Shown here piece by piece: positions 14,696 through 52,295 of a stretch of DNA of 64,000 nucleotides (the stretch's first letter is position 1; each line of letters begins with the position of its first letter). The DNA is taken from NCBI GenBank assembly GCA_000002445.1, contig CM000207.1, positions 416,001-480,000 on the forward strand, given 5' to 3'. Source of the stretch: Trypanosoma brucei. Its lineage: Eukaryota. A program made the position numbers and the translations under genes. The notes under the pieces are model-generated. The model was not told the DNA's origin and did no database searches. It saw only the letters and a list, made by a program, of their open reading frames with translations.

Positions 14696-14745
14696 TGCCA
14701 GGGTCCAGCACCCCGCCTCATCGGGGGAAGCCAAGAGTCAGCAGA
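14696..14745 (+). promoter_or_regulatory. Pr77-like internal promoter/5' hallmark of L1Tc-family retroelements, partial because the first about 25-30 nt appear missing or diverged.
   Basis: The sequence tgccagggtccagcaccccgcctcatcgggggaagccaagagtcagcag is compared from memory with the published Pr77 consensus (..TGCCAGGGTCCAGTACCCCGTATCATCGGGGGAAGCCAAGAGCCAGCAGC). An exact alignment against L1Tc/ingi references is needed. Confidence 0.5.
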
Positions 14746-14813
14746 GTTCCTTTCATGGGGAACACTGCTGTGCTCCGGCTACGGCATCATACAGCACAGG
14801 GATCAGCAGCGTC

Positions 14814-15473
14814 TTGCTGGGACACCGTTTTTTATTTGTCGATCCCTGGGCACGTGCCATCAGTAGTATCATCCGCACTAAGATGCTGCTGTCCGGTGAT
14901 GTGGAAGAGAATCCCGGCCCGTCGTTTCGCGGGATGCAGTGGAACTGCGCCGGGCTATCTCAAGGAAAGAGATTAGCACTCCACAAAACCCTTGTTGATG
15001 AGCGGATTGCCTTTTGTCTGTTGAGCGAGACAAGGATGACGCCTGGAGAGGCGGCTTGCTTTAGCGTTGCTGGCTACCAACATCACGTAATAGCTCGTAA
15101 CTGCAAAGGAGGTGCTATATCAATACTAGTGAGGGAGGACCTGCCAGTCGAGACCGGTATGGTCGTCGTTGGTCGCATTGAACAAGTGCATGCAACAATT
15201 CACCTTGCACGTGGAACGGCGCTGACTGTCACGTCGGCACACATCCCACCAAAACACACCTTCACGGCAACTGACCTAGATACGCTTCTGACGACTGACG
15301 GTGCCCAGCTCATCGGTGCAGACGCTAACGCACACGCGTTGGCATGGGATCGCGCGAGCCCACCAAATACCAAGGGTGAAACCCTCACACAGTGGTGCAT
15401 TGACAACCAGTTTCTGGTCTGCAACACTGGTGAGTGCACAAGATACGCGCCACCACGGGGAGTCCACCCCTGA
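14814..15473 (+). pseudogene. Retroelement ORF fragment carrying an N-terminal 2A peptide plus an AP (apurinic/apyrimidinic) endonuclease domain. It is frame-disrupted relative to the downstream RT ORF.
   Basis: The 219-aa ORF reads MLLSGDVEENPGPSFRGMQWNCAGLSQGKRLALHKTLVDERIAFCLLSETR..., an exonuclease-endonuclease-phosphatase fold signature. It ends at a TGA while the alternate frame continues (..HHGESTPDVTLSRNCRVYTWISLYSPDSDHH), which indicates a 1-nt indel. Confidence 0.75.
14898..14921 (+). other. Viral-type 2A 'ribosome-skipping' motif D-V-E-E-N-P-G-P near the N-terminus of the retroelement polyprotein.
   Basis: The sequence gatgtggaagagaatcccggcccg encodes DVEENPGP, preceded by LLSG; the canonical 2A C-terminal consensus is D(V/I)ExNPGP. 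Functional 2A sequences are established at this position in L1Tc/ingi elements. Confidence 0.7.
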
Positions 15474-26830: not shown

Positions 26831-28222
26831 TTAAAAACACTCGGCTATGGCACGCGCGGCAAGCAGCACATCCTTGAAAGTGTTGTACAACGGCACTGGA
26901 GCGAGGAAGACAAGGTCCGTCGAGCACGTACTAACAATAATACCGACATCACGCAGATACCGCTCCATGCACTCCGCGTCACTTTCACTCTCACCCCCAT
27001 ATGAGGCCCGTGGCGTAAGGCTCGCTGACAATTTATTGGGTAGTATACGAATAGTCAACTGTGCTCCGCGCTGGCTTGGGTCGACGGAGGTCAAAAGGCG
27101 GATGGAGCCAGGCGGAACCAACTCACCGAGCAATAACTCCAAATAGGATGTCAGCAAAAGTGATTTCTCGCGTAGTGAGTCCATGCCAACCTTTGCTATG
27201 AGGCGCACACTTGGTAACAGGGCCATCATGCCAAGCACTGACACATTACTGAGCTGAAACCCTGCAGCGCCTTCCGCAGGCTCAAATTTATAGGACGGAT
27301 CAATGAGATCCCGCGGTTCGTGACCCCTACAGCCACGGAGCGTCTTGAGCTCACTCCCAACCTGCGTATGCTTCGTGTGCACAAAGGCACCAGCAAGGTT
27401 TCCTGGCCCGCTGTTTAGGTATCTATAAGTGCACCAACTTGCAAAATCCACCTCCCACTCGTGCAATTTGAGAGGCACGTTACCCACGGCGTGCGCACAA
27501 TCCACACCCACGATGATGCCTTTGGCGTGCGCGGCCTTCGTTATGGCCTGCACGTCAACCAGTTGCCCCGTAATAAAGTGGAGGGCGCTGAGTAGTATCA
27601 CCGCAATCTCACTCCCCCGCTTGTCGATGATGGAGAGGTATTCGGTCATTGGTATGTGTGCTGGGGAATCTTTCCCATCCTCATCTTTAGGAGCACACAC
27701 AGTGATGAGGTCCTCCGCTGGGTTAAGGCCCCGGGCCTCCAATTGCGACATCACCGCATAAACATTGTTGGGAAGGGCATAGTTCCCCATCATCACTAGC
27801 CGCCGATTTCCTTTCGGCTTGTAGAAGGCTATTAGCAACAAATGCAAGTTCACCGTGTAGGAATTCATTGTGATTACCTCACTCTCCTGCGCCCCGACAA
27901 TTTCCGCGATCTCCTTCCGGCCAAGGCGATCGACCTCAGCCCACGGGTTAGGGTGTTGGAATTCAGCGAGCACGCCGAGCTCACGCCACCGCTTCAGGGC
28001 ACCAGCAACACTCGACTCCACGTCCTTGTGCTGCAAACCAAGTGTTTGCCCACAGAGGTAAACGTGATCGGAACCGTCGCGCCGCTTTGGAATATTAAAG
28101 GCGTCGCGATGCACTTGCAGTGGGTCATTGCGGTCCATGCACTCAGCAAAACCATCTTCGGTGAGCGCAAGACCCTCGGCTCGTGCGGTGCTAAGAAGTT
28201 TTTCCGCTGCGTTATTGCGCAT
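26831..28222 (-). CDS. Kynureninase-like PLP-dependent enzyme (class V aminotransferase fold), with Arg where the PLP Schiff-base Lys is expected.
   Basis: The 463-aa protein has an N-terminal FNIPK...VYLCGQTLGLQ and the family core ...VDFASWCTYRYLNSGPGNLAGAFVHTKH, which corresponds to kynureninase ..[24 protein letters not shown]. The expected Lys codon reads AGA (Arg) here. Confidence 0.8.
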   Translation of the reverse strand: MRNNAAEKLLSTARAEGLALTEDGFAECMDRNDPLQVHRDAFNIPKRRDGSDHVYLCGQTLGLQHKDVESSVAGALKRWRELGVLAEFQHPNPWAEVDRLGRKEIAEIVGAQESEVITMNSYTVNLHLLLIAFYKPKGNRRLVMMGNYALPNNVYAVMSQLEARGLNPAEDLITVCAPKDEDGKDSPAHIPMTEYLSIIDKRGSEIAVILLSALHFITGQLVDVQAITKAAHAKGIIVGVDCAHAVGNVPLKLHEWEVDFASWCTYRYLNSGPGNLAGAFVHTKHTQVGSELKTLRGCRGHEPRDLIDPSYKFEPAEGAAGFQLSNVSVLGMMALLPSVRLIAKVGMDSLREKSLLLTSYLELLLGELVPPGSIRLLTSVDPSQRGAQLTIRILPNKLSASLTPRASYGGESESDAECMERYLRDVGIIVSTCSTDLVFLAPVPLYNTFKDVLLAARAIAECF

Positions 28223-33746: not shown

Positions 33747-34997
33747 CTAAAATATTGTTAGTGTGGCGAAGACCGCGTAGAAGAGGGACAGTGGGTACAT
33801 GATGAGATATCTCTGCTTCTCCATGTGGAAACCTCTCACCAACATCGACGTTGCGCACCACGCGGACCAAAGAACGGCCAACAAGGCAGGCACCAACATC
33901 GTTTTACCGACATACCCAAATAACCAATACATCAGTGACTGCGAAGCTGCGAGAAAAACATTAGGAATCAAACCATAGCCTAACGCGCTGATGACGAACT
34001 GCAACGACACCGCATTTTCTGTCATGAGCGAGAGCAGGACTCTCATGAATATAACACCAATAACGAACTGCCCGTAAATGGTACTGAACCGCATGCTGCC
34101 CCGAAGTGAAAGCAAAATCGCAAGAAGAACGGCGAATACTATGGGTCCTGCGAGATCCATGCTGTCAGAAACGTTTTCCCCCATCTCTCTAAATGGGTTA
34201 AGGACGGCAAGTGCGTTGGCCCGTATTTCGTGAGGAAATATTCCCAGTTCGTCCAGTAGTGGAAGATCATCTTCGGGGTATCCGAAACGCTGCTGGTGCA
34301 GTGGAACTTGTCCTTGTGAGGTGTCGACTCCGCTTTCGTTGTTAAAGGCTGTCATCATATTCCGCAATGCAAGTGTCTGCAACAAATTCCCGAAGAATCC
34401 CGGTTGGGTTGGGGAATACGACGTTGGGGGTGGTGTTGGTGGTGGACCCGTTGAGGAGGTTCGTTGGTGCCACGACGTGCCCTGCAAGGGGAGCTGTTGA
34501 CCTTTTGGGGAATAGTCATGGAACACCGGTACCGCTGGATTCATTAGAGGCACAGTCGTTGCTACCGGCATCTGAATGAATGGATGAGCAGCAGTAGGTT
34601 TCGGTGATTGGGTTCCACTCACGAAATGGGAGGGGCTACTTTGGAAGCTGTTCCTATCTGAGCCTGTGCGAAAGGCTTTGGGCGATGCGCACGATGCCGG
34701 CCGTGAAAAGTACGGCGTTGCCGAAGCTACTTTAGGAGGTTGCGCTTGCATTTGTTGCTGCGGGTACTGATACGGATGCTGGTATTGTTGCTGTTGCTGT
34801 TGCTGTTGTTGCCGTATTGGGTTCATGTGGTTTGCGTCCCCTCCATTATAGAAGAAATCTTCTGGTCGTGCACCAGCTGACTGGTTGGGCCACGGCGCAA
34901 ACGGCGGCGGTTGCTGGTAGTAGTTACTGTTGTTGGCCCCATTAACTTCACCTTGATTCCCCTGGGGAAAGTATAAACCGTTTGGTTGCGGTTGCAT
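33747..34997 (-). CDS. Yip1-domain (YIPF) Golgi membrane protein with an N-terminal Q/P/Y-rich low-complexity region.
   Basis: A conserved Yip1 core DDLPLLDELGIFPHEIRANALAVLNPF is followed by several hydrophobic helices (IVFAVLLAILLSL, FVIGVIFMRVLLSLM, ALGYGLIPNVFLAASQSLMYWLFGYV, LVPALLAVLWSAWCATSML). The N-terminal region includes a polyQ run (QQQQQQQQQQY). Confidence 0.8.
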   Translation of the reverse strand: MQPQPNGLYFPQGNQGEVNGANNSNYYQQPPPFAPWPNQSAGARPEDFFYNGGDANHMNPIRQQQQQQQQQYQHPYQYPQQQMQAQPPKVASATPYFSRPASCASPKAFRTGSDRNSFQSSPSHFVSGTQSPKPTAAHPFIQMPVATTVPLMNPAVPVFHDYSPKGQQLPLQGTSWHQRTSSTGPPPTPPPTSYSPTQPGFFGNLLQTLALRNMMTAFNNESGVDTSQGQVPLHQQRFGYPEDDLPLLDELGIFPHEIRANALAVLNPFREMGENVSDSMDLAGPIVFAVLLAILLSLRGSMRFSTIYGQFVIGVIFMRVLLSLMTENAVSLQFVISALGYGLIPNVFLAASQSLMYWLFGYVGKTMLVPALLAVLWSAWCATSMLVRGFHMEKQRYLIMYPLSLFYAVFATLTIF

Positions 34998-38461: not shown

Positions 38462-40810
38462 TCATGAGGGTTTGGGCATTCGTTGACACGTCCAATAATC
38501 GTAATAGTTGCGTCGCGGAGAAGGCTCCAATGGCACAGCATTGTGCGTCTGCCCGCTAGCGGCCGCTTGCCTTTTCCTGGCCGGCTGTGGCTGCTGCGTA
38601 TCAAGCAGAAGTGACGCCTCCCACGTTAATAGGCAACGTTGAGCGTAAGTTAGGGCGGAGAAAGGGCAGGATTGGTGCATCAGTGGGCTGCTGCTCTCAG
38701 GGTTGCACACGTCAGAGCGACCGGTCTTTTCAACATCGGTTGTCACCTTTTCCACCCCATTTGTGCACAGAACGGAGGGACCCGCCTGTTGTCCCTCCAA
38801 TTCTTCCTCATTTGTTGATGGCCGAGTTTGTTGCCGCGCTTCGTTCTTAACGTTCTCCTCGTCAAATTTCACCAATGGGATTGACGGAGTTGAGGAACCC
38901 GTGTGGTAGTAGCGAAGCAACTGAATGAGCGAGGGGTGCATGCCGTGCTCAACTTCAGATTCAGTTTCTTTCGTATCGTGATTTTGAGAGCCGTCTTCTA
39001 CCTTAGTTGAATTTTTGTTGTTTTGTGGGAATGCTGTAAACAGCGCCGCGTACACAGGATCATCTTCCATACGTTCGTGAATGCGTTCAACAACGGCACT
39101 GCACGAAGCTACGTAGTTTGGGGGCTTCAATCCACCGGTCGCTACCCCATCCTGCACAGAATCAATGGTGCCACCGACCTGCGCACTGCGTCTTCGCGTA
39201 GGGCGGATAGACCTCCAGATTTCTGCCAAACACGCCGACCGCGGTGGTCGAAGGCGCTTCGCAGCGTCCGGTGCTTCTGCCACATCGCTGACCGGAGGAT
39301 CCTTCTTCTCATTCGACTCAGCAGCCGCTGCAGGAGCGGATACCCTGCTGCTACGTGCGATGGTACGGGATTCTACGGTTGCCTTCACAACTTCTGTGGC
39401 CTTCTCCTTCGTCCCTGTAGCTAACTTCGCGGAAGATCGAGTATGACCGCTCGCTTCCCAAGTTTTGTTAGGGCCGCTGCCGGTGGGTTTTGTGGCAGAC
39501 CTCACTTCACTGACTTCCCCACCAGTGCTACTTTCTTTTGGTCGGTGCCCGCGGTGCCGACTGCGTGTGCCCGGGGGTGGAGGTCCGTTTCGTGTTGAAT
39601 CAAACCGGGTTCTCAGACGCGGTTTCTCTTCGTCATTTTCCTCTTCTTCTTCCGCTACGTTATTTTCGGTTGCCTCGGCTTTGCGCTGCGGTGGCGCTCG
39701 CTTCCGAGTAGCTTGAGTGTTTGGAAGTTTGTCCTCCTCCCCACCGCCCTCATCCGTCTCTTCTACCTTTTGCTTTGCGGCTACTGAGAGGGTGTTGCTA
39801 GGTTCCTGCGGGACGCTTTTCTTGGGGTGGAAATTTGAGAGCAGTTCATAGTAGAAGTGCCGCAGAGAAATCAGAAGCGTGTCACGGCGGGTGGGGCCAA
39901 CGTGGTTCTTTAACACCTCAACGTCCATGTTGCGGCACACAACCCACCATGAGAAGGCAAGGTCTTTCGAGCTAAACCTGTCTAAGACAACACCGCGTGT
40001 CAACAGAGATTGGTAGTAGGACACTATAGTGTCAACGATAGCGCAAGAGAACTTCACCACATCCGATTTTCCACTTACCTGGCGAGAGGTTTTTCTATCG
40101 GAGCTTGCGCCTCCCCCCTGGCCCACAGCAACTGGGAGAGAGCGCTCCGGCAGCTGCGGCGATGGCGTTCCCCCATTTCCCTCTGTAATTACTCGCTTAA
40201 GTGGCGTTGCACCAGCTTCAAACGCGTCACTTTGTTCCCGCAACCTTTTGTTGCCATCGCTACTCGAGCTCACCCTCCCTCCTCCATTTTCTTCATCCTT
40301 GCTTACAACTAGCAGAGACGCTCTCGAGGTTTCTTCGACATTGTCAGTATCCCCTCTGCTGCCGCTATGGCTCGTAATGTGTGGAGAAGCGGTCATGCGA
40401 CCTGCTGATGTTTTAGAAACAAAAGCCATAGGGCCGAAGAAGATGATGCGAGCCATGTCAACTGCACAGCCGTCCTCTGACGTGCAAATTCTTTCATCTG
40501 GCTCCGCTGCGAGTAGGAGGTGAAGGTTCTTTGCCCGTGCAGCGTTTATTGGCTCTACAGGAAGCGTGGTGTTGGCGTGATATGAACGCAAACGCTGAAT
40601 TGTATTGAGTGCAATGAAGTCTCTGCACCGGTCGTCTTTCCATGGGTCCATTTCGTACACATTGGAGGCATCCAGCGATATGCCCATTCGCCTCGTCTGT
40701 CGACTCATGTTTTGTAGCCACCGAGACACGCTGCCCGCCGATGTCCGCCGCTTTTCAGCCTGTGCTCTGTTCCACCTAACGCTAACCTCACCACCAACTT
40801 TCTCTAACAC
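38462..40810 (-). CDS. Hypothetical protein of 782 aa, largely low-complexity/disordered (S/P/E/R-rich), with no recognisable domain.
   Basis: The ORF is long on the gene-array strand, with an acidic run EEEEENDEEK and basic stretches. The C-terminal segment includes VERIHERMEDDPVYAALFTAF. No family-level motif is identified. Confidence 0.55.
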   Translation of the reverse strand: MLEKVGGEVSVRWNRAQAEKRRTSAGSVSRWLQNMSRQTRRMGISLDASNVYEMDPWKDDRCRDFIALNTIQRLRSYHANTTLPVEPINAARAKNLHLLLAAEPDERICTSEDGCAVDMARIIFFGPMAFVSKTSAGRMTASPHITSHSGSRGDTDNVEETSRASLLVVSKDEENGGGRVSSSSDGNKRLREQSDAFEAGATPLKRVITEGNGGTPSPQLPERSLPVAVGQGGGASSDRKTSRQVSGKSDVVKFSCAIVDTIVSYYQSLLTRGVVLDRFSSKDLAFSWWVVCRNMDVEVLKNHVGPTRRDTLLISLRHFYYELLSNFHPKKSVPQEPSNTLSVAAKQKVEETDEGGGEEDKLPNTQATRKRAPPQRKAEATENNVAEEEEENDEEKPRLRTRFDSTRNGPPPPGTRSRHRGHRPKESSTGGEVSEVRSATKPTGSGPNKTWEASGHTRSSAKLATGTKEKATEVVKATVESRTIARSSRVSAPAAAAESNEKKDPPVSDVAEAPDAAKRLRPPRSACLAEIWRSIRPTRRRSAQVGGTIDSVQDGVATGGLKPPNYVASCSAVVERIHERMEDDPVYAALFTAFPQNNKNSTKVEDGSQNHDTKETESEVEHGMHPSLIQLLRYYHTGSSTPSIPLVKFDEENVKNEARQQTRPSTNEEELEGQQAGPSVLCTNGVEKVTTDVEKTGRSDVCNPESSSPLMHQSCPFSALTYAQRCLLTWEASLLLDTQQPQPARKRQAAASGQTHNAVPLEPSPRRNYYDYWTCQRMPKPS

Positions 40811-41932: not shown

Positions 41933-41968
<36 letters not shown>
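41933..41968. repeat. (TA)18 microsatellite in the intergenic region upstream of the gene at 38462-40810.
   Basis: The 36-nt tract atatatatat... is read directly. Confidence 0.95.
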
Positions 41969-42697: not shown

Positions 42698-45600
42698 TCA
42701 TCGTTCATTGTAAAGGTGAATGGCATTTTCCTGCGGTGTGTACCTGCTGGGGACCCAAGAACGAACTTGAACCCTCGAGGCCACGGGTTGGACCCGAGTC
42801 ATCGAGAACCGCGAGGGTGTAGGACCGACAGGTGTGCAGTGGTAATGCGCATTGGCGACTCGTGAAGCGATCCTCCCCAACCTCCTCGCAGTTTGGGACG
42901 TCGAATCCACTGTTGTACTCAAAGCGTTAGAACCGGTTGGAGAATATGGTGGTCCCCAACTGCTGGAGTGGTGCGACGGAGAACCAGGGGAAAGGCGATT
43001 CCAGCCATCCCTTTCCGTTAGCGTTGACGTACTGTCTTGGTAACTCTGTTGAGTGAATACAGGAGAAGGCATCCTTCCGCTTGGCGCCGCTCTCATGGCT
43101 GATTGAAGTGTTGGTGCCCATGAATTTGGCACCTGTTGTTGGGGGGATAGGGAGCGCGAAGCTCCCTGCACTATTTCACGTTGGTGTTCTGAGAAGGATA
43201 GGCTAAGGCGTTTTCTTTGCGGAGGTGGGTGGGGTTGCAGATATTCACCGCGACCCAGCTGGCCAGGCCCCGGTTGGGTACTCATAAAAGCTGAGCCTTC
43301 TGAGTGCGGTTCGTACAAACCACTGGTTTCACTACGCACCTCAGCGACGGGCGGTAAAGTAACGCGCTGACGACCCAACTCACCACCCAGTCCGCTGTTG
43401 GCTTTATTTTGATGTTGCTTTGATCGATTATAAGCATTGGAGATGGTGCTTCTCTTGGCTGGTAACCGCGGTGGCCGTAAGTTGACACCATCACCAAACC
43501 CTAGGTCTGGATACAGCCCAAGATACACAAGCCGCTCACCCTGGAAATCGGGACCAAAAGGCTCAGAGTTGCCGGTGTCTTGTGCAAGATTCAGTTTTCG
43601 AGAGCTCCCTGATGATGACGGACGTGCGGCAGAAGCTATCGCATCCCTTGCAGCAACAGCTCTCAAACAAGATATACTACTTGCGGGTCTCTCACCAGTG
43701 ACAGAGGGGGTGAAACGACTCGAAGTGCGGAGGGCGGGGGAACCCAAAGATTCACTTCGGCCAGCACCTGGACGAAGGGAGCAGGGCGACCCACCATCGA
43801 CCACCCACGGACGCCGATTTTCAGCTTCTGCAGACTGCAAAGACACGTTACGACCAGTATTCTCCTCTTTCGTATCGTGAAGAACTCCATCGCAGCTGAA
43901 AACAACAGAGGGAGATGCAGCTGATTGATTCTTTTCGCGGTAATCAAATGGGGAACTGCCGACATCCCGCGCATTCAGGACGCAGTGTTGGAGATCACGG
44001 CGCCGCGGTGCAGAAAAACGTGACGGTGTCCCCGACAATTTCGAGTGACTACGCATAGATGATGACACATCGGGCAGAGCGCTAACACCTCCAGCTTCTT
44101 TATCGCTGACGTTAGCAATGTCACCGCTCATACTGATAGTTGAACCTACCCGTTCCGTGGACACTCCTTCCGCTTTTGGTGAGTCATCGGCATTGTTATT
44201 GGCTTCAGCAGTTTGACACCGCCTTCGATTATTTGGCAGTCGCGCAGTTTTTTCCTTTGATGATACACCGGCAGAGGCACACCCACTACCCAAAGCATTG
44301 TTCAGTGTGGTAATCACGGCATCACGTGCAGCGTCAACAGCCGAGTTTTTCACAGCACTCCTCAAAGTTGATCTAACAGCAGAGACTCCACCCCCCGTAG
44401 GGGCACCATCATAAATCATATTTGACATTTCTTCCGACGACCAGCGTATAAACTCCTCACCATCAACAACTAGCTGAGCGCAGACATCAACAGAAACGAC
44501 GATTGCTTCACCAAATACAACAGGTTCCACAACAGCAGATGAAAAACTTGTTAACTTACCGCCCCTCCGAGTGTCAACAGATCCCACTTCACCCCCCTTC
44601 ACCGACAACACATCAACATCCTTTGACAACGAGGAAATCTCTCGCATTTCATTGCAGGCATCAGCCTCAAAACGAAATACTTTCCCCTCAACACCAGAAT
44701 TATCTAATGTAAGGCGATTAGCAGAAGAGACGTCACTACCAACAGATGGTACACCATCAATTTCAAAATCCTCAACATCTTCAGGAGCAGCTGTTCCTGT
44801 AACATCAGTTTTACTTCCCTCGCCATCACAAACAAATCCATCACTTCCACCATCCTCTTTGCTCAGTTCCTTTGCATCAACATCAGCTGTGGGAATAGCT
44901 GCATCCTCTTTGCTCAGTTCCTTTGCATCATCATCAGCTGTAGGAATAGCTGCATCCTCTTTGCTCAGTTCCTTTGCATCATCATCGGCTGTGGGAATAG
45001 CTGCATCCTCTTTGCTCAGTTCCTTTGCATCATCATCAGCAGTGGGAATAGCTGCATCCTCTTTGCTCAGTTCCTTTGCATCATCATCAGCTGTAGGAAT
45101 AGCTGCATCCTCTTTGCTCAGTTCCTTTGCATCAACATCAGCTGTGGGAATAGCTGCATCCTCTTTGCTCAGTTCCTTTGCATCAACATCAGCTGTGGGA
45201 ATAGCTGCATCCTCTTTGCTCAGTTCCTTTGCATCATCATCAGCTGTAGGAATGGCTGCATCCTCTTTGCTCAGTTCCTTTGCATCATCATCAGCTGTGG
45301 GAATGGCTGCATCCTCTTTGCTCAGTTCCTTTGCATCATCATCAGCTGTAGGAATAGCTGCATCCTCTTTGCTCAGTTCCTTTGCATCATCATCGGCTGT
45401 GGGAATAGCTGCATCCTCTTTGCTCAGTTCCTTTGCATCATCATCAGCTGTGGGAATAGCTGCATCCTCTTTGCTCAGTTCCTTTGCATCATCATCGGCT
45501 GTGGGAATAGCTGCATCCTCTTTGCTCAGTTCCTTTGCATCAACATCAGCTGTGGGAATGGCTGCATCCTCTTTGCTCAGTTCCTTTGCATCATCATCAG

Positions 45601-48600
45601 CTGTGGGAATAGCTGCATCCTCTTTGCTCAGTTCCTTTGCATCATCATCAGCTGTAGGAATAGCTACATCCTCTTTGCTCAGTTCCTTTGCATCATCATC
45701 GGCTGTGGGAATAGCTGCATCCTCTTTGCTCAGTTCCTTTGCATCATCATCAGCTGTGGGAATGGCTGCATCCTCTTTGCTCAGTTCCTTTGCATCATCA
45801 TCGGCTGTGGGAATAGCTGCATCCTCTTTGCTCAGTTCCTTTGCATCATCATCAGCTGTGGGAATAGCTGCATCCTCTTTGCTCAGTTCCTTTGCATCAT
45901 CATCAGCTGTGGGAATGGCTGCATCCTCTTTGCTCAGTTCCTTTGCATCATCATCAGCTGTAGGAATAGCTGCATCCTCTTTGCTCAGTTCCTTTGCATC
46001 ATCATCGGCTGTGGGAATAGCTGCATCCTCTTTGCTCAGTTCCTTTGCATCAACATCAGCTGTGGGAATGGCTGCATCCTCTTTGCTCAGTTCCTTTGCA
46101 TCATCATCGGCTGTGGGAATAGCTGCATCCTCTTTGCTCAGTTCCTTTGCATCAACATCAGCTGTGGGAATGGCTGCATCCTCTTTGCTCAGTTCCTTTG
46201 CATCATCATCAGCTGTGGGAATAGCTGCATCCTCTTTGCTCAGTTCCTTTGCATCATCATCAGCTGTAGGAATAGCTACATCCTCTTTGCTCAGTTCCTT
46301 TGCATCATCATCGGCTGTGGGAATAGCTGCATCCTCTTTGCTCAGTTCCTTTGCATCAACATCAGCTGTGGGAATAGCTGCATCCTCTTTGCTCAGTTCC
46401 TTTGCATCATCATCAGCTGTGGGAATAGCTGCATCCTGTTTGCTCAGTTCCTTTGCATCATCATCGGCTGTGGGAATAGCTGCATCCTGTTTGCTCAGTT
46501 CCTTTGCATTATCATCAGCTGTGGGAATAGCTGCATCCTCTTTGCTCAGTTCCTTTGCATCAACATCAGCTGTGGGAATAGCTGCATCCTCTTTGCTCAG
46601 TTCCTTTGCATCAACATCAGCTGTGGGAATAGCTGCATCCTCTTTGCTCAGTTCCTTTGCATCAACATCAGCTGTGGGAATGGCTGCATCCTCTTTGCTC
46701 AGTTCCTTTGCATCAACATCAGCTGTGGGAATAGCTGCATCCTCTTTGCTCAGTTTCTTTGCATCAACATCAGCTGTGGGAATAGCTGCATCCTCTTTGC
46801 TCAGTTTCTTTGCATCAACATCAGCTGTGGGAATAGCTGCATCCTCTTTGCTCAGTTCCTTTGCATCATCATCAGCTGTGGGAATAGCTGCATCCTCTTT
46901 GCTCAGTTCCTTTGCATCATCATCAGCTGTGGGAATAGCTGCATCCTCTTTGCCCAGTTCCTTTGCATCATCATCAGCTGTGGGAATAGCTGCATCCTGT
47001 TTGCTCAGTTCCTTTGCATTATCATCAGCTGTGGGAATAGCTGCATCCTCTTTGCTCAGTTCCTTTGCATCATCATCAGCTGTGGGAATAGCTGCATCCT
47101 CTTTGCTCAGTTCCTTTGCATCAACATCAGCTGTGGGAATAGCTGCATCCTCTTTGCTCAGTTTCTTTGCATCAACATCAGCTGTGGGAATAGCTGCATC
47201 CTCTTTGCTCAGTTCCTTTGCATCAACATCAGCTGTGGGAATAGCTGCATCCTCTTTGCTCAGTTCCTTTGCATCAACATCAGCTGTGGGAATAGCTGCA
47301 TCCTCTTTGCTCAGTTCCTTTGCATCAACATCAGCTGTGGGAATAGCTGCATCCTCTTTGCTCAGTTCCTTTGCATCAACATCAGCTGTGGGAATAGCTG
47401 CATCCTCTTTGCTCAGTTTCTTTGCATCAACATCAGCTGTGGGAATGGCTGCATCCTCTTTGCTCAGTTCCTTTGCATCAACATCAGCTGTGGGAATGGC
47501 TGCATCCTCTTTGCTCAGTTCCTTTGCATCAACATCAGCTGTGGGAATAGCTGCATCCTCTTTGCTCAGTTTCTTTGCATCAACATCAGCTGTAGGAATA
47601 GCTGCATCCTCTTTGCTCAGTTCCTTTGCATCATCATCAGCTGTGGGAATAGCTGCATCCTCTTTGCTCAGTTCCTTTGCATCATCATCAGCTGTGGGAA
47701 TAGCTGCATCCTGTTTGCTCAGTTCCTTTGCATCATCATCAGCTGTGGGAATGGCTGCATCCTGTTTGCTCAGTTCCTTTGCATCAACATCAGCTGTGGG
47801 AATAGCTACATCCTCTTTGCTCAGTTCCTTTGCATCATCATCAGCTGTGGGAATAGCTACATCCTCTTTGCTCAGTTCCTTTGCATCATCATCAGCTGTG
47901 GGAATAGCTACATCCTCTTTGCTCAGTTCCTTTGCATCATCATCAGCTGTGGGAATAGCTGCATCCTCTTTGCTCAGTTCCTTTGCATCAACATCAGCTG
48001 TGGGAATAGCTACATCCTCTTTGCTCAGTTCCTTTGCATCATCATCAGCTGTGGGAATAGCTGCATCCTCTTTGCTCAGTTCCTTTGCATCAACATCAGC
48101 TGTGGGAATAGCTGCATCCTCTTTGCTCAGTTCCTTTGCATCAACATCAGCTGTGGGAATAGCTGCATCCTCTTTGCTCAGTTCCTTTGCATCATCATCG
48201 GCTGTGGGAATAGCTACATCCTCTTTGCTCAGTTCCTTTGCATCATCATCAGCTGTGGGAATGGCTGCATCCTGTTTGCTCAGTTCCTTTGCATCAACAT
48301 CAGCTGTGGGAATAGCTACATCCTCTTTGCTCAGTTCCTTTGCATCATCATCAGCTGTGGGAATAGCTACATCCTCTTTGCTCAGTTCCTTTGCATCATC
48401 ATCGGCTGTGGGAATAGCTGCATCCTGTTTGCTCAGTTCCTTTGCATCATCATCGGCTGTGGGAATAGCTGCATCCTGTTTGCTCAGTTCCTTTGCATCG
48501 TGAGCTGCATCATTATTTGTTTTATCGTTATCACTTCCTTTATTTTTCTGTTGGAGTTCAGTGATTGTGATGTTGTCAATGACCTTTTGCGCGTTGTCAG

Positions 48601-51229
48601 ATACGGCTTTATCCATTGATTGTTGTATTAGATTGGTTAAAATTGTTTCTTTACCTTCTTGTTCGCCATTTGTGTCCAAATGTTGCTGTTTGTTTATTGT
48701 TTTGCCGTGTTGTGGTGAGTCAAATTGATTGTGTACCGTGTGCTCATTTTCGTGTGTGGTAAGCGGTTTTTCTTGCTGGTTATTGTTTGTTTCTTTAGTT
48801 GTGAAGTCGTCGCAAGTTTCTGTACCCTCTTGTTTAATTTTGTCACTGGCTCGCCGGCTTGGAACTATTTCTTGAGTGGCAACGGTATCGTTAAGGGACG
48901 GAGTGCCACCCTCGCTACCTGTTGACCCCTTCAAAACCGTGTTTTCCCCTGCGTTGTTCAAGAGTGTTTGTTCCGCTGACAGGGCATCCCCTGGTTGTTG
49001 ATGCATGGGCTCTGTTGCTTGTATTGACAGCCGATTAGAAGAATTGATTTTGTGTTCTAAATTTGTCGGTGTTGTCCCCCCAGTTTGTTTTCCTGTATCT
49101 TGTTCTTTTGATGTCCTTTCCTCTCCCTCCACTATCGTGGTAGGCTGCATACCGTTCGCCAGTTCTTGTTCTGCATGTCGTTGATTCGGTGATTCGCGTG
49201 TCTGCCGCTCTTTCTCATCTATATTTTGGCATTTTCCCACAGGAGTGAGTTGATCCCTTGTGACAGTGGTGTGCTCTTGGCAATTTCCATTGTTAATTAA
49301 CAGTTGAGAAGTATTCACCCCTTGACAACCGTTGAATTGTTGCTCAGTTGCTTGACAAGGTGGCTGTTGGTACTGCTGGAGAGCCAGCCGAAGAGACATG
49401 ACCTCTTTCTGTATAGCAGTGGTTGCACTCATTATGTATTGTTCAGAGCTCTCCGTCGCGGTGGTTCCTGCAAATTGTTCTTCGGAGCAAACATTTGTTT
49501 CGTGTTCAACTGCACTAGGTACCGATTTTTCATTTCCTGGGACCAGTGCGTCTTCGTTGAACCCCAAAACTCTGTTAACTTGCGGGGCAAACACCTGCTC
49601 CACTTTATGTGTGTGTAGTGTCTGTTGTTGTTGGTTGCCCTTATTAGTCTCGACTTCGGTGGCCGTTCTCACATCACCGAGATGCCCATGCAGATATTCT
49701 GTGGTAACACTACTGCTGTGTTCTTCCCAAAAAGGCTGAGAAGTAGGCGGCTCCTTCGTTTTCACACTTTGTACTTGGCTCCTTTGGTTCTGTGAGGATT
49801 TCCTCCTTTTCCCCTCCAGAAGTTCATACAACTTGTGAACGTTGTTCAGTTCACATGTAGTAATGATGTCGCGAATTGCAGCATCACTGAGTTTGCCGTC
49901 GTGTTGTATGGATACCTCCACCATATTTGAATTTCTACAATTAAGTGCTACCGAAACATTTCCATGCGGTACCCCAAGAGAGTGTGCGATATCTTTTTCA
50001 TATGCCTGACATAGGTGAAACGGTACCACGCGCAACGACGTGTTTTGCTTGCTCTTGGGAAGGTCAAGGAGGAACATTGACTCTCTGGGGACCAACTTGG
50101 GCACCATCGCCCTTCGTGACATCTTTTGTCCCCTGCCTTCTCCCTTTTTAGGAGACATCTCACTGAGGGGCGAGGGAGTGCTCCGTTGCGACAACAGACA
50201 TGGCTTTCTAGGGCTTGAGCACGCTAATGTTGCTGTCAATGAGAACGTGTCACCCAACGCGTCATACTTGAGGCGTCGCAACTTGTACCGTATATGCTGC
50301 TCCGCCGTATACAGTGCCTCCCTATTTAATGTTTCCTCGAACGCTACATATTGTATGTCGTCAAGCATATCTTGACTCATTTCCTCCCATGCTTCTGCCG
50401 CGTCACCTGCACTGCTGGAGCGCTGTGAAGAGCAAGTAGCAGCGAACCCCGGGCACCCCCCTTTTGCTTCCATTTGGCTACTGCTCACTGCACCTGGGCT
50501 GGGGGTTCCCGTCCACCGGGATGTGTCGAATGTCTTCCCGGTGCTGTTCAATTTGTTTAAAACTTTACTGACTATTGCCCCTGTCTCCCCCTCGTCGCCA
50601 GCTGCACCACCCATATACACTTCGTTTCGCTGCGGCGAGCCTTCTTTCCTATCGCTGCCGCTCCGTTGATTTCCCTGTGTATTTCGGTCCTGTGCCACCA
50701 CAGCAATTTTGTACAAGTTCCCAACATGTCGTACGTTATCAGGCGTCAGAAGAGTGTAGGCGCCCTTGTTTTTATCAAAATATGTGATAAACACCACGCT
50801 TAGTTGTAAGAGCTCTGCGTTCTTCTGTATAGTTTCCAATACTGTCTCTATTGTCAGGGGGCCGTCGACATGCGGTGCCCCAACTAGCATAGAACCAACC
50901 AGCTCACCCGAGTCGGATATAAACTCGAGAGACCAGTTTTCTCCATTTATTGTGCCCTCCAGACGGCTTCCACTCGCACCCTGAGATCGGGGGTAACCCC
51001 CTTTGCCCCACGTGCCATCGTAGGTTGATTGCAGCGATATGTCACCCGACTGTTTTTCGAAACGAGACAATGGCCTACTGTAAGGTTCCAATAAATCCGC
51101 ACTGTACGTTGAAGGCGTGTCCCTGCCACTGTGTAGGTTTCTGCCGGCTTGGTTGGGGCGTTCGCTGCCGGTAGCTACACGACCATCTAAATGTCCGTCT
51201 CCCGGATGTGCCCTAGAGGTAAAATACAT
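42698..51229 (-). CDS. Giant repetitive protein of 2843 aa. It has a unique N-terminal region of about 900 aa, a central array of about 72 tandem 17-aa repeats (consensus AKELSKEDAAIPTADDD), and a C-terminal region of about 700 aa that is S/P/G-rich and disordered.
   Basis: The uninterrupted 8.5-kb ORF is the largest in the window. The repeat array is near-perfect, with a few recurring substitutions (DDD/DVD, KED/KQD, DAA/DVA, KEL/KKL) plus synonymous third-position variants. No known repetitive-antigen repeat that I can recall matches it. Confidence 0.75.
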   Translation of the reverse strand: MYFTSRAHPGDGHLDGRVATGSERPNQAGRNLHSGRDTPSTYSADLLEPYSRPLSRFEKQSGDISLQSTYDGTWGKGGYPRSQGASGSRLEGTINGENWSLEFISDSGELVGSMLVGAPHVDGPLTIETVLETIQKNAELLQLSVVFITYFDKNKGAYTLLTPDNVRHVGNLYKIAVVAQDRNTQGNQRSGSDRKEGSPQRNEVYMGGAAGDEGETGAIVSKVLNKLNSTGKTFDTSRWTGTPSPGAVSSSQMEAKGGCPGFAATCSSQRSSSAGDAAEAWEEMSQDMLDDIQYVAFEETLNREALYTAEQHIRYKLRRLKYDALGDTFSLTATLACSSPRKPCLLSQRSTPSPLSEMSPKKGEGRGQKMSRRAMVPKLVPRESMFLLDLPKSKQNTSLRVVPFHLCQAYEKDIAHSLGVPHGNVSVALNCRNSNMVEVSIQHDGKLSDAAIRDIITTCELNNVHKLYELLEGKRRKSSQNQRSQVQSVKTKEPPTSQPFWEEHSSSVTTEYLHGHLGDVRTATEVETNKGNQQQQTLHTHKVEQVFAPQVNRVLGFNEDALVPGNEKSVPSAVEHETNVCSEEQFAGTTATESSEQYIMSATTAIQKEVMSLRLALQQYQQPPCQATEQQFNGCQGVNTSQLLINNGNCQEHTTVTRDQLTPVGKCQNIDEKERQTRESPNQRHAEQELANGMQPTTIVEGEERTSKEQDTGKQTGGTTPTNLEHKINSSNRLSIQATEPMHQQPGDALSAEQTLLNNAGENTVLKGSTGSEGGTPSLNDTVATQEIVPSRRASDKIKQEGTETCDDFTTKETNNNQQEKPLTTHENEHTVHNQFDSPQHGKTINKQQHLDTNGEQEGKETILTNLIQQSMDKAVSDNAQKVIDNITITELQQKNKGSDNDKTNNDAAHDAKELSKQDAAIPTADDDAKELSKQDAAIPTADDDAKELSKEDVAIPTADDDAKELSKEDVAIPTADVDAKELSKQDAAIPTADDDAKELSKEDVAIPTADDDAKELSKEDAAIPTADVDAKELSKEDAAIPTADVDAKELSKEDAAIPTADDDAKELSKEDVAIPTADVDAKELSKEDAAIPTADDDAKELSKEDVAIPTADDDAKELSKEDVAIPTADDDAKELSKEDVAIPTADVDAKELSKQDAAIPTADDDAKELSKQDAAIPTADDDAKELSKEDAAIPTADDDAKELSKEDAAIPTADVDAKKLSKEDAAIPTADVDAKELSKEDAAIPTADVDAKELSKEDAAIPTADVDAKKLSKEDAAIPTADVDAKELSKEDAAIPTADVDAKELSKEDAAIPTADVDAKELSKEDAAIPTADVDAKELSKEDAAIPTADVDAKKLSKEDAAIPTADVDAKELSKEDAAIPTADDDAKELSKEDAAIPTADDNAKELSKQDAAIPTADDDAKELGKEDAAIPTADDDAKELSKEDAAIPTADDDAKELSKEDAAIPTADVDAKKLSKEDAAIPTADVDAKKLSKEDAAIPTADVDAKELSKEDAAIPTADVDAKELSKEDAAIPTADVDAKELSKEDAAIPTADVDAKELSKEDAAIPTADDNAKELSKQDAAIPTADDDAKELSKQDAAIPTADDDAKELSKEDAAIPTADVDAKELSKEDAAIPTADDDAKELSKEDVAIPTADDDAKELSKEDAAIPTADDDAKELSKEDAAIPTADVDAKELSKEDAAIPTADDDAKELSKEDAAIPTADVDAKELSKEDAAIPTADDDAKELSKEDAAIPTADDDAKELSKEDAAIPTADDDAKELSKEDAAIPTADDDAKELSKEDAAIPTADDDAKELSKEDAAIPTADDDAKELSKEDAAIPTADDDAKELSKEDVAIPTADDDAKELSKEDAAIPTADDDAKELSKEDAAIPTADVDAKELSKEDAAIPTADDDAKELSKEDAAIPTADDDAKELSKEDAAIPTADDDAKELSKEDAAIPTADDDAKELSKEDAAIPTADDDAKELSKEDAAIPTADDDAKELSKEDAAIPTADVDAKELSKEDAAIPTADVDAKELSKEDAAIPTADDDAKELSKEDAAIPTADDDAKELSKEDAAIPTADDDAKELSKEDAAIPTADDDAKELSKEDAAIPTADVDAKELSKEDGGSDGFVCDGEGSKTDVTGTAAPEDVEDFEIDGVPSVGSDVSSANRLTLDNSGVEGKVFRFEADACNEMREISSLSKDVDVLSVKGGEVGSVDTRRGGKLTSFSSAVVEPVVFGEAIVVSVDVCAQLVVDGEEFIRWSSEEMSNMIYDGAPTGGGVSAVRSTLRSAVKNSAVDAARDAVITTLNNALGSGCASAGVSSKEKTARLPNNRRRCQTAEANNNADDSPKAEGVSTERVGSTISMSGDIANVSDKEAGGVSALPDVSSSMRSHSKLSGTPSRFSAPRRRDLQHCVLNARDVGSSPFDYREKNQSAASPSVVFSCDGVLHDTKEENTGRNVSLQSAEAENRRPWVVDGGSPCSLRPGAGRSESLGSPALRTSSRFTPSVTGERPASSISCLRAVAARDAIASAARPSSSGSSRKLNLAQDTGNSEPFGPDFQGERLVYLGLYPDLGFGDGVNLRPPRLPAKRSTISNAYNRSKQHQNKANSGLGGELGRQRVTLPPVAEVRSETSGLYEPHSEGSAFMSTQPGPGQLGRGEYLQPHPPPQRKRLSLSFSEHQREIVQGASRSLSPQQQVPNSWAPTLQSAMRAAPSGRMPSPVFTQQSYQDSTSTLTERDGWNRLSPGSPSHHSSSWGPPYSPTGSNALSTTVDSTSQTARRLGRIASRVANAHYHCTPVGPTPSRFSMTRVQPVASRVQVRSWVPSRYTPQENAIHLYNER
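44850..48498. repeat. A 51-bp tandem repeat array of about 71.5 copies lying inside the giant CDS.
   Basis: The period is measured directly: gctgtgggaatagct recurs at 44885, 44936 and so on. The unit is tgcatcctctttgctcagttcctttgcatcatcatcagctgtgggaatagc, with variants atcaacatc, tcctgttt, agctacatc and cagtttctt. Confidence 0.9.
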
Positions 51230-52295
51230 GTATCCCCGCTAAGGGGGCGATAGAACCACTGCTTGTTGCCTATAAATGGGCAATCCTTACCTCCTCTTTT
51301 TCTTACCCTCCCCTCTCTCCTACTACCACGCAGTCAATGCTTTCTAATGTGAAGCCGCTCACCGCGTTAAATGAACGGGTTTGCCGAGCGAAAGGAACAA
51401 ATAATACTGTGCGAGTGCGCTTTTTTCCGTGGCCGTATGTTCATGCAACGCCAAGAAGCGTGTAGGGAGCACGAAGTCCCTCTCCGTCACTTCAGTCGGG
51501 AGGGTTGCTCGTATTGTTACAAGACAAAGGTGCTGGAAAAGAAGGTGTTGCGGAGGTTTTTTCTTCCTATTATTTCGACTTCTGACCCTGAGTGTGGAGA
51601 GAAGCACATAGTTCACACAGAAATTAGTGAGGAAAAACGGGTGGTGTGAGCGAAAAGGAGAGTGTCGGTGTGGTAAAATATACACATCCATCCAGTTTTC
51701 CCAAACATAATTAGAACCAAACTTATTTTGTTGTCTGTGAAAAAAAAAATACGTTGTACTGTTGGATATTCTACACACTTTTAAATTTCGGGGTCCGTGC
51801 AGGCATGTTATTGACGACTGTAGTGTTCGTACCCGTTGCGTGGTCCGGTAAGGTGCTCGGCAGTCCCAGTTCCACCCCTTGTGAGAGGCGTGGGTAAGAT
51901 GTGTAAAATTTCATAAATCACCAACTCGTTGGCTTAGTGATGGACGCAACGGAATGTCCCTCTCTCTTTGCATTTGCCCCCACATTGGGTTCAAATGGAT
52001 GCATGCCGTTGACGGTGGGGAAGATCGAAATAAACGGTGGTAATATAGGAGGAGATTAATGGGTTACCAGCGATTTTAATCTCGTTCCGTAAATATAAGG
52101 CTTTCCCCACTCCGCGCCAGCAAGTCACAGAAGAAGAAACTTCGAGCAGGTGGTTACTAAGCTGAAACCGCGCCAGATATACGGTTCTTCGTGGAACAGA
52201 GTACTGATTACAGAAGTATGAAGAAACATTTATCGCTTTGTTCGTAGGGGTGAAACTTGGCATGTAGCACAGCCAACTAACATCGTCGCCGTGGT

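What the first reader, a model, noticed from the sequence alone, without database searches (positions are those of the whole stretch)
42698..51229. Giant gene with about 72 near-identical 17-aa (51-bp) tandem repeats, a candidate novel repetitive surface/antigen-type protein
An 8.5-kb uninterrupted ORF contains a 3.65-kb array of 51-bp units encoding AKELSKEDAAIPTADDD. Only four recurring amino-acid variants occur (DDD/DVD, KED/KQD, DAA/DVA, KEL/KKL), together with synonymous third-position variants (gtggga/gtagga, atcagct/atcggct). The array is flanked by a unique N-terminal region of about 900 aa and an S/P-rich disordered tail of about 700 aa. The motif does not match any trypanosomatid repetitive antigen I can recall (SAPA, CRA, FRA, B13, TcD and others). 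Such arrays are typically immunodominant, copy-number polymorphic and prone to assembly collapse. Acidic amphipathic repeats with a conserved Pro-Thr could also be a cytoskeleton/flagellum-associated or glycosylated repeat. The mixture of fixed variants argues for ongoing unequal crossing-over with purifying selection on the unit.
Basis: seen in the sequence. Interest (0 to 1): 0.7.

Follow-up and report, generated by a model that had tools for sequence, protein, structure and literature searches.

The report
Known trypanosome cytoskeletal repeat protein gene
The 8.5-kb gene with about 71 copies of a 17-amino-acid acidic repeat is real, but it is a Trypanosoma brucei chromosome 9 gene already catalogued as a flagellum-attachment-zone (internal cytoskeleton) protein, not a new surface antigen.

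Summary
A 2,843-aa ORF lies on the minus strand at 42698-51229. It holds 71 full units plus one partial unit of a 51-bp / 17-aa repeat at 44851-48499.

The window is T. b. brucei TREU927 chromosome 9, because several neighbouring proteins match TREU927 entries exactly. The gene immediately upstream in window coordinates is Tb927.9.2070. [quoted passage not shown]

The protein has four parts:
- a confidently predicted beta-grasp (PB1-like) domain;
- one FAZ1_cons (PF23398) domain;
- a polyanionic repeat array with net charge about -237;
- a basic Ser/Arg/Pro tail.

There is no signal peptide, transmembrane segment or GPI signal. Syntenic orthologues in T. theileri, T. vivax, T. cruzi and T. rangeli, mostly labelled "Gb4", keep this plan. 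Their acidic repeats have different periods (16 to 73 aa).

I conclude it is an intracellular cytoskeletal scaffold or spacer protein. It is not GB4, FLAM8 or PFC20. Copy number cannot be verified, because two T. equiperdum assemblies break inside the array. The gene is ordinary for trypanosomes. The minor new points are the PB1-like domain and the gene's absence from NCBI/UniProt protein sets.

The parts
42698..51229 (-). Complete coding sequence, 2,843 aa (302 kDa, pI 4.4). Inferred to be T. brucei Tb927.9.2075.
   Evidence: ORF list and translation; composition. Gene identity comes from the exact match of the neighbouring ORF to Q38FV1 = Tb927.9.2070 and from the paper text on Tb927.9.2075.
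50693..50938 (-). N-terminal beta-grasp (PB1-like) domain, aa 98-179. It is conserved in all orthologues and in the short paralogue Q38FM9.
50222..50374 (-). Long predicted alpha-helix, aa 286-336, with the conserved motif E..R..I...E.S.R.
   Evidence: AF2 model helix 227-277 in model numbering, pLDDT 82-86. Invariant R and E columns in the alignment.
49823..50086 (-). Single FAZ1_cons domain (Pfam PF23398), aa about 382-469.
   Evidence: Pfam scores are 29.7 bits for the N-terminal fragment and 27.6 bits for the full protein, against a cut-off of 27.5. Orthologues score 53.4 (T. grayi) and 32.2 (T. theileri). The AF2 beta-alpha-beta-beta-alpha domain has pLDDT 90-96.
48497..49789 (-). Thr/Gln/Glu/Asn-rich low-complexity linker, aa 481-911.
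   Evidence: Composition: T 12%, Q 11%, E 10%, N 8%; net charge -26; GRAVY -1.10. No homology was found for this region.
44851..48496 (-). Array of 71 full units plus one partial 51-bp unit encoding AKELSKEDAAIPTADDD, aa 912-2126. Net charge is -237 and pI 4.05.
   Evidence: TRF; unit census; variant map and higher-order duplication; charge.
44240..44850 (-). Val/Ser/Gly-rich acidic segment after the array, aa 2127-2330. It may contain a small fold, but this is unresolved.
   Evidence: Composition. The only hydrophobic stretch of the protein, aa 2237-2255, contains Glu and Asp. The single-sequence AF2 model was uninformative, pLDDT 34.
42701..44239 (-). Basic Ser/Arg/Pro-rich tail, aa 2331-2843, pI about 10, with 15 SP/TP sites.
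   Evidence: Composition and motif count. It is 100% identical to the annotated T. equiperdum fragment P0026.
42845..42886 (-). Short C-terminal motif RRLGRIASRVANAH, shared with the T. vivax orthologue (KRLGEIVSRVASAH).
   Evidence: BLASTP gives 11/20 identities, E = 0.031, for this one pairwise comparison. This is weak and rests on one comparison.
51589..51660 (-). Polypyrimidine tract followed by AG, about 360 nt upstream of the ATG. It is a candidate trans-splice acceptor.
   Evidence: Read directly from the sequence. This is inference only, from the general rule for trypanosome mRNA processing.

Best explanation
This is the T. brucei chromosome 9 gene Tb927.9.2075. It encodes a large intracellular cytoskeletal protein of the kinetoplastid-specific FAZ1_cons domain family and is catalogued as a flagellum attachment zone (FAZ) protein.

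Shown here:
- gene identity by position;
- the domain plan: PB1-like beta-grasp domain, long helix, one FAZ1_cons domain, low-complexity linker, a 1,215-aa polyanionic repeat array, and a basic Ser/Arg/Pro tail;
- conservation of that plan, at a syntenic position, in other trypanosomes.

Inferred mechanism:
- The folded N-terminal module targets the protein and assembles it into the cytoskeletal structure. The beta-grasp domain may act as a PB1-type protein-protein or head-to-tail oligomerisation unit, with FAZ1_cons as the family's shared cytoskeleton-association domain.
- The acidic, proline-punctuated repeats act through bulk properties. They would form a long, highly charged, flexible spacer or bristle whose length is set by copy number.
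- The basic tail could bind acidic partners such as tubulin tails, or be regulated by phosphorylation.

The array evolves by concerted evolution (unequal exchange or gene conversion). This explains near-identical units within a species and different units between species.
For: Identity:
- Window proteins are exactly identical to TREU927 chromosome 9 entries: ORC1B-like EAN76315.1, nitrilase EAN76308.1, RPL38 EAN76314.1, and the 748-aa EAN76319.1 = Q38FV1.
- Q38FV1 is Tb927.9.2070.
- Literature anchors Tb927.9.1970 (Sec1/STXBP1).2020 (L38) and .2030 (ORC1B) lie in the expected order.
- Tb927.9.2075 is described as 'the flagellum attachment zone protein' with a complete transcript longer than 10 kb. 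Only this 8.5-kb CDS in the neighbourhood fits that length.

Family:
- FAZ1_cons is at or above the Pfam cut-off here and clearly above it in orthologues.
- The older Pfam-B domain PB000506, which I take to correspond to FAZ1_cons (not verified), was reported in nine T. brucei proteins that all localise to the FAZ or cytoskeleton.

Architecture and conservation:
- T. theileri synteny.
- Full-length T. vivax orthologue of 4,584 aa with the same tripartite plan.
- A fused EukProt gene model covers this gene plus its two downstream neighbours.
- All orthologue arrays are acidic (-11 to -33 per 100 aa), with periods of 16, 17, 30, 39 and 73 aa.

Intracellular location: no signal peptide, transmembrane segment or GPI signal.

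Concerted evolution: clustering of variants and a 12-unit duplication.
Against: - The link to Tb927.9.2075 is positional. I could not see the TriTrypDB record or any localisation data.
- The product name comes from one sentence in one paper.
- The FAZ1_cons score is borderline in the T. brucei protein itself (27.6-29.7 bits against 27.5).
- PB1 similarity is structural only, at moderate Z, on a predicted model. There is no sequence-level PB1 signal, and Foldseek E-values are all at least 0.02.
- Nothing here tests the roles proposed for the repeats or the tail.
- The C-terminal tail is barely conserved in T. vivax.
- Orthologues are annotated 'Gb4', a posterior-end microtubule protein, so the localisation could differ from the FAZ.
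Confidence: 0.72

Rival explanations
1. The gene's main biological significance is as an immunodominant tandem-repeat B-cell antigen. The repeats would serve as an antibody target or decoy, and the protein could be a serodiagnostic candidate.
For: The array is long and near-identical and highly charged and hydrophilic. These are properties typical of known trypanosomatid repeat antigens, many of which are intracellular cytoskeletal proteins (general knowledge). The T. cruzi antigen atlas paper contains the term 'protein Gb4' (not read).
Against: There is no export signal, so exposure would occur only after lysis. The repeat position and acidity are conserved across species with very different hosts, and the protein keeps conserved folded domains, which points to a cellular role. 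No serological data were accessible. This explanation is compatible with the best explanation rather than exclusive of it.
Confidence: 0.3
2. It is a GB4-type protein that caps or binds subpellicular microtubule ends at the posterior of the cell, as the 'microtubule-associated protein Gb4' label on its orthologues implies, rather than a FAZ component.
For: The closest named homologues in T. cruzi, T. conorhini, T. rangeli and T. theileri carry the Gb4 name. GB4 was reported to contain the same Pfam-B domain.
Against: True T. brucei GB4 is a different gene, Tb427tmp.160.1200. It has 2,256 nt of unique 5' sequence, 37 repeats of 600 nt and no unique 3' end. That does not match this gene, which has 51-bp repeats and a 2.15-kb unique 3' part. 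The Gb4 label on the orthologues is therefore a similarity-based name. The one literature mention of Tb927.9.2075 says FAZ.
Confidence: 0.12
3. The array length, or even the continuity of the ORF, is an assembly artefact: a mis-sized or chimeric repeat region.
For: Two other Trypanozoon assemblies end inside the array. The OVI contig ends about 110 bp in, and the IVM-t1 contig starts 12 units before the end. The T. theileri orthologue is cut by runs of N. The gene is missing from NCBI/UniProt protein sets.
Against: The array contains 19 DNA variants in a non-periodic order and no indels, and it stays in frame across both junctions. Both junction sequences are reproduced in independent genomes. 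A transcript longer than 10 kb covering the whole CDS is reported. The T. vivax orthologue has an even longer intact array.
Confidence: 0.1

Closest known systems
FAZ1 (Tb927.4.3740) and the other T. brucei proteins that share the FAZ1_cons / Pfam-B PB000506 domain (FAZ8, FLAM8, GB4, PFC20, Tb927.10.870/FRW1)
   Same: All are kinetoplastid-specific. They share the FAZ1_cons domain, are large and mostly repetitive, and associate with the cytoskeleton or FAZ according to the literature.
   Different: This protein has one divergent FAZ1_cons copy plus an N-terminal beta-grasp domain. At sequence level that domain was found only in its own orthologues and in one short paralogue. The repeat is a 17-aa acidic unit. 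The gene is not FLAM8, because all five published primers are absent. It is not PFC20, which has a different start sequence and locus. It is not GB4.
T. brucei GB4 (Tb427tmp.160.1200), the posterior-end microtubule-associated repeat protein
   Same: It belongs to the same domain family, and the orthologues of the present gene are annotated with its name.
   Different: GB4 has 37 repeats of 600 nt and no unique 3' end. This gene has 71.5 repeats of 51 nt and a unique tail of 717 aa.
Syntenic orthologues: T. vivax KAH8618592.1 (4,584 aa), T. theileri ORC92837.1, T. cruzi RNC34005.1, T. rangeli RNE98986.1, T. conorhini RNF24911.1
   Same: All share the N-terminal beta-grasp domain, helix, FAZ1_cons domain and a downstream acidic Pro-containing array. 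Genomic neighbours are the same in T. theileri.
   Different: Identity is only about 20-35% in the folded domains. Repeat units are unrelated in length (16, 30, 39, 73/28 aa against 17 aa). The C-terminal tail is barely alignable.
T. brucei Q38FM9 (495 aa, hypothetical) and its orthologues of about 500 aa in T. congolense, T. vivax, T. theileri and T. grayi
   Same: It has the same beta-grasp domain, helix and FAZ1_cons module (BLASTP E = 4e-12 and 0.004). In T. b. equiperdum its locus tag begins DPX39_09, which suggests the same chromosome.
   Different: It ends right after FAZ1_cons, with no linker, repeats or tail.
PB1 domains (p62/SQSTM1, p40phox/p67phox, Par6, NBR1)
   Different: There is no sequence-profile match to PB1. 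The acidic motif is only partly present. Other beta-grasp families (EAP, UBL, DIX, BILBO1 NTD) score similarly in Foldseek.

Membership tests
FAZ1_cons (PF23398) domain proteins of kinetoplastids | A match to the Pfam FAZ1_cons model at or above the gathering score | tested here: met
   The N-terminal fragment scores 29.7 bits and the full protein 27.6 bits against a cut-off of 27.5. This is borderline. It is backed by orthologues at 53.4 bits (T. grayi) and 32.2 bits (T. theileri); T. cruzi scores 22.8 bits, below the cut-off.
FAZ1_cons (PF23398) domain proteins of kinetoplastids | A compact folded domain at the matched region | tested here: inconclusive
   AF2 predicts a beta-alpha-beta-beta-alpha domain with pLDDT 90-96. 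No reference structure of the family was available for comparison.
FAZ1_cons (PF23398) domain proteins of kinetoplastids | Association with the FAZ or cytoskeleton in the cell | not testable with these tools
   The only support is the product name in one paper and the published localisations of other family members.
T. brucei GB4 | About 2.3 kb of unique 5' sequence followed by about 37 repeats of 600 nt running to the 3' end | tested here: not met
   The only tandem period found is 51 bp. There is 2.15 kb of unique 3' coding sequence.
FLAM8 (Tb927.2.5760) | Published locus-specific primer sequences present | tested here: not met
   None of five FLAM8 primers matches the window, even allowing 2 mismatches.
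PFC20 (Tb10.389.0100) | ORF starts ATGGATCAATCATGCAACGAA | tested here: not met
   This ORF starts ATGTATTTTACCTCT. PFC20 is on chromosome 10.
PB1 domain | Beta-grasp fold superposable on solved PB1 domains | tested here: met
PB1 domain | Sequence-profile match, and an OPCA acidic motif or conserved basic-cluster lysine | tested here: not met
   No Pfam PB1 hit appeared for any of the 15 domain sequences, even at E up to 10. Only partial acidic residues (Y-x-D-K-D) are seen by eye.
Surface or secreted tandem-repeat antigens (SAPA / mucin type) | N-terminal signal peptide and/or GPI-anchor signal or transmembrane segment | tested here: not met
   The N-terminus is hydrophilic and the C-terminus ends ...ENAIHLYNER. 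The only hydrophobic window (aa 2237-2255) contains Glu and Asp. This was a simple hydropathy scan, not a dedicated predictor.
Tb927.9.2075 (gene identity) | Lies between Tb927.9.2070 and the next gene on TREU927 chromosome 9 and is long enough for a transcript over 10 kb | tested here: met
   The adjacent 748-aa ORF equals Q38FV1 = Tb927.9.2070 exactly. The CDS is 8.5 kb. The database record itself could not be inspected.

The most novel reading that the evidence does not exclude
The N-terminal beta-grasp domain is a genuine PB1-type head-to-tail polymerisation module, shared by this giant protein and its 495-aa paralogue Q38FM9. The two would co-assemble into a filament of the flagellum attachment zone. 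The species-specific acidic array would then act as a length-tunable spacer, so that repeat copy number sets a physical dimension of the structure.
Probability: 0.12. Interest if true: 0.5.

Novelty: already known. Interest (0 to 1): 0.22.

Why it matters
The main value is clarification. A striking repeat array flagged as a possible new antigen is a catalogued cytoskeletal gene of T. brucei.

Three practical points follow:
- The gene is missing from the NCBI and UniProt protein sets of the T. brucei group. Only C-terminal fragments are annotated in T. equiperdum, so ordinary protein searches return nothing and the gene looks more novel than it is.
- Its orthologues carry a misleading 'Gb4' name.
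- The orthologue family has an undescribed, confidently predicted PB1-like domain that could be tested as an assembly module of the trypanosome cytoskeleton.

The array is also a likely copy-number-variable marker and a possible serological target, but neither was tested.

Tried and rejected
Searches that returned nothing useful:
- Word-indexed protein search with the 911-aa N-terminus gave no hits.
- The same tool with a 15-sequence alignment of the beta-grasp domain gave no hits, not even the input proteins, so that null is not informative.
- An exact-product look-up of the whole protein found nothing on record.
- PDB sequence searches with the N-terminus and with the domain profile found nothing.
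- A full-text search for the repeat peptide found no papers.
- Supplement searches for Tb927.9.2075 found nothing.

Tools that failed or were unavailable:
- The AlphaFold database fold library was not available.
- The single-sequence AF2 model of the C-terminal segment had pLDDT 34 and is unusable.

Candidate identities tested and rejected:
- FLAM8, because its primers are absent.
- PFC20, because it has a different start and locus.
- Tb927.10.7950, a guess based on an FtsJ/ORC neighbourhood. The Tb7980 Walker A motif and protein length did not match.
- True GB4.

Other ideas dropped:
- A doublecortin-like reading of the N-terminal domain, which I suspected from the sequence pattern. No DCX structure appeared among the top matches and there was no Pfam hit.
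- The claim of purifying selection on the repeat unit, which is not significant.

Full report
**1. The observation**

The region 42698..51229 is a single open reading frame of 2,843 codons that starts with ATG. It lies on the minus strand. Tandem Repeats Finder reports one array at 44851..48499 with period 51 bp, 71.5 copies, 96% matches, no indels and score 6696. No other array scoring at least 80 exists in the 64-kb window.

Cutting the protein in register gives 71 full 17-aa units (aa 912-2118) followed by a partial AKELSKED. There are 8 protein variants and 19 DNA variants of the unit. Ten of the 51 positions vary:
- Six are non-synonymous: E3K, S5G, E7Q, A9V, D16V, D17N.
- Four are synonymous.

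There are six variable residues rather than four, and the strand was not stated. The 1,310-aa ORF on the plus strand (44571..48503) is simply the repeat read in antisense.

**2. Where the window comes from**

All long ORFs but a few lie on the minus strand, as in a trypanosomatid polycistronic unit. Exact-sequence look-ups settle the source:

| Window ORF | Exact match in T. b. brucei TREU927 |
|---|---|
| ORC1-like AAA+ protein, 602 aa | EAN76315.1 (TREU927 only) |
| Nitrilase | EAN76308.1 |
| RPL38 | EAN76314.1 |
| 748-aa ORF at 38462..40708 | EAN76319.1 = UniProt Q38FV1 |

All of these sit on a 3,057,547-bp record. A supplementary table maps Q38FV1 to Tb927.9.2070.

Published gene numbers for the neighbours fall in the right order along the window:
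- Sec1/STXBP1 = Tb927.9.1970 (Pfam Sec1).
- L38 = Tb927.9.2020 (Pfam L38e).
- ORC1B = Tb927.9.2030.

The giant gene is the next gene after Tb927.9.2070. [quoted passage not shown] Only this 8.5-kb CDS in the neighbourhood fits that. I therefore identify the gene as Tb927.9.2075. The link is positional, because I could not view the database record itself.

**3. Why ordinary searches make it look novel**

The N-terminal 911 aa found nothing in the word-indexed search. An exhaustive HMMER scan of 1.84 billion representative proteins found only 18 proteins, the best at 33% identity and none from the T. brucei group. The whole product is not on record.

The C-terminal 717 aa matched only two 'hypothetical' fragments from T. 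equiperdum: P0022 (576 aa) and P0026 (649 aa, 100% identical). Both T. equiperdum assemblies break inside the array. The OVI contig ends about 110 bp into it. The IVM-t1 contig begins 12 units before its end.

The gene is thus absent or fragmentary in the NCBI and UniProt protein sets. The non-decimal identifier (.2075) suggests it was added to the reference annotation later; that last point is inference. The same 51-bp unit and both junctions recur in independent genomes, so the array is real. Its copy number remains unverified.

**4. Anatomy**

Pfam finds one family, FAZ1_cons (PF23398), at aa 403-469. The score is 29.7 bits for the N-terminal fragment and 27.6 bits for the full protein, against a cut-off of 27.5. 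This is borderline, but the T. grayi and T. theileri relatives score 53.4 and 32.2 bits.

An AlphaFold2 model of aa 60-500, built on a 15-sequence alignment, gives three confident elements:
- A beta-beta-alpha-beta-beta-beta domain at aa 98-179, pLDDT about 90.
- A long helix at aa 286-336.
- A beta-alpha-beta-beta-alpha domain at aa 382-458, pLDDT 90-96. This is the FAZ1_cons region.

After a Thr/Gln/Glu/Asn-rich linker comes the repeat array, which has net charge -237 and pI 4.05. Next is an acidic Val/Ser/Gly-rich segment, and last a basic Ser/Arg/Pro tail with pI about 10.

A hydropathy scan finds no signal peptide, no GPI-type C-terminus and no credible membrane span. A polypyrimidine tract followed by AG lies about 360 nt upstream of the ATG, as expected for a trans-spliced gene (inference).

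**5. Relatives**

The named homologues are 'microtubule-associated protein Gb4' entries from T. cruzi, T. conorhini, T. rangeli and T. theileri, plus hypothetical proteins of T. grayi, T. vivax and T. congolense. They fall into two groups.

The first group is a short paralogue of about 500 aa. In T. brucei it is Q38FM9. It has the same N-terminal module and nothing after FAZ1_cons.

The second group contains the long repeat-bearing orthologues:
- The T. theileri 'Gb4, partial' gene lies directly downstream of orthologues of the same three upstream genes as in the window, and it is cut by runs of N.
- The T. vivax orthologue is complete at 4,584 aa and has the same tripartite plan.
- A fused EukProt gene model covers this gene and its two downstream neighbours in the same order.

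In every orthologue the array is strongly acidic (-11 to -33 charges per 100 aa) and rich in Ala, Glu, Asp, Pro, Thr and Val. The period differs: 17 aa in T. brucei, 30 in T. cruzi, 16 in T. rangeli, 39 in T. theileri and 73/28 in T. vivax. The tail is hardly conserved, except for a short RLGxIxSRVAxAH motif shared with T. vivax (weak).

**6. What it is not**

- True T. brucei GB4 (Tb427tmp.160.1200) has 2,256 nt of unique 5' sequence, 37 repeats of 600 nt and no unique 3' end. This gene is not GB4, and the 'Gb4' label on its orthologues is a similarity-based name.
- All five published FLAM8 primers are absent from the window.
- PFC20 is Tb10.389.0100 and has a different start sequence.

**7. 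How it most likely works**

A published analysis found the older Pfam-B domain PB000506 in nine T. brucei proteins, all of them FAZ- or cytoskeleton-associated. I take PB000506 to correspond to FAZ1_cons, but I could not verify this.

Combined with the product name, the missing export signals and the conserved architecture, the best reading is a structural cytoskeletal protein:
- The folded N-terminal module docks or polymerises it. A PB1-like domain is a classic protein-protein or head-to-tail assembly unit.
- The polyanionic, proline-punctuated array works through bulk properties as an extended spacer. This explains why charge and position are conserved while the sequence is not.
- The basic tail may bind acidic partners such as tubulin.

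Only the architecture and its conservation are shown here. The roles are inferred.

Within the array, variant units are clustered (same-variant pairs within three units: 70 observed against 47.6 expected, p = 0.0003). Units 43-54 and 55-66 are a partial 12-unit duplication. Both features fit homogenisation by unequal exchange or gene conversion. The ratio of 6 non-synonymous to 4 synonymous variable sites does not differ significantly from the 78% non-synonymous expectation (p = 0.15). Selection on the unit is therefore not demonstrated.

**8. Rivals**

- An antigen role is compatible with the best explanation but untested.
- A GB4-like role at the posterior end is possible, but only the borrowed name favours it.
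- An assembly artefact is unlikely for the existence of the array. The variant order is non-periodic, the frame is preserved, both junctions are reproduced and a full-length transcript is reported. It cannot be excluded for the exact copy number.

**9. Verdict**

This is a real feature that was correctly seen, but it is an already catalogued gene of an ordinary kind for trypanosomes. The modest new points are the PB1-like N-terminal domain shared with a short paralogue, the misleading Gb4 annotation of the orthologues, and the gene's absence from the mainstream protein databases.

Noticed in passing
window 14599-17740 (+ strand): A degenerate non-LTR retrotransposon lies antisense to the gene array, between the nitrilase and STXBP1 genes. 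It has an endonuclease ORF (Exo_endo_phos_2) followed by a 779-aa ORF with a reverse transcriptase domain (RVT_1, E = 3e-44). It is probably an ingi-type element.
   Followed up: partly
window 44571-48503 (+ strand): A 1,310-aa open frame is produced simply by reading the repeat array in antisense. It is not a gene.
   Followed up: yes
window 42701-44647; proteins P0026 (TEOVI_000174600) and P0022 (DPX39_000016800): Two T. equiperdum 'hypothetical/uncharacterized proteins' of 649 and 576 aa are C-terminal fragments of this gene. Both assemblies break inside the repeat array.
   Followed up: yes
T. brucei Q38FM9 (P0015, 495 aa), outside the window: This short paralogue has the same PB1-like, helix and FAZ1_cons module and no repeats. 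It is conserved in T. congolense, T. vivax, T. theileri and T. grayi. In T. theileri it lies on the same contig as the long gene, 47 accession numbers away.
   Followed up: partly
protein P0017 (EukProt gene3965-2828_t, 3,640 aa): This is a fused gene model from an unidentified kinetoplastid. It joins the orthologue of this gene to the orthologues of the 748-aa protein and the ARL GTPase. That shows conserved gene order and a gene-model error. Its version of the protein carries acidic repeats of about 73 aa and extra FAZ1_cons-like domains.
   Followed up: partly
window 33747-34997, 19981-21909, 26831-28222, 22455-24569 (- strand): The first-ATG ORFs for YIP1 (416 aa), STXBP1 (642 aa), kynureninase (463 aa) and a 704-aa protein are longer than the TREU927 GenBank models (359, 641, 435 and 692 aa). 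They equal the T. equiperdum or T. b. gambiense models exactly. This suggests inconsistent start-codon choices between annotations.
   Followed up: no
window 38462-40708 (- strand): The immediate neighbour is Tb927.9.2070 (Q38FV1). It is a 748-aa low-complexity protein reported as the top HDAC1 interactor and is enriched with CRD1.
   Followed up: no
window 41933-41968: A perfect (AT)18 microsatellite lies in the intergenic region downstream of the giant gene.
   Followed up: no
proteins P0014/P0019 (T. vivax), P0016/P0020 (T. melophagium), P0018/P0021 (Angomonas deanei): In these other family members the FAZ1_cons domain itself is the tandemly repeated unit, for example 7 copies in 970 aa. 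Such proteins may be the true GB4-type relatives.
   Followed up: no
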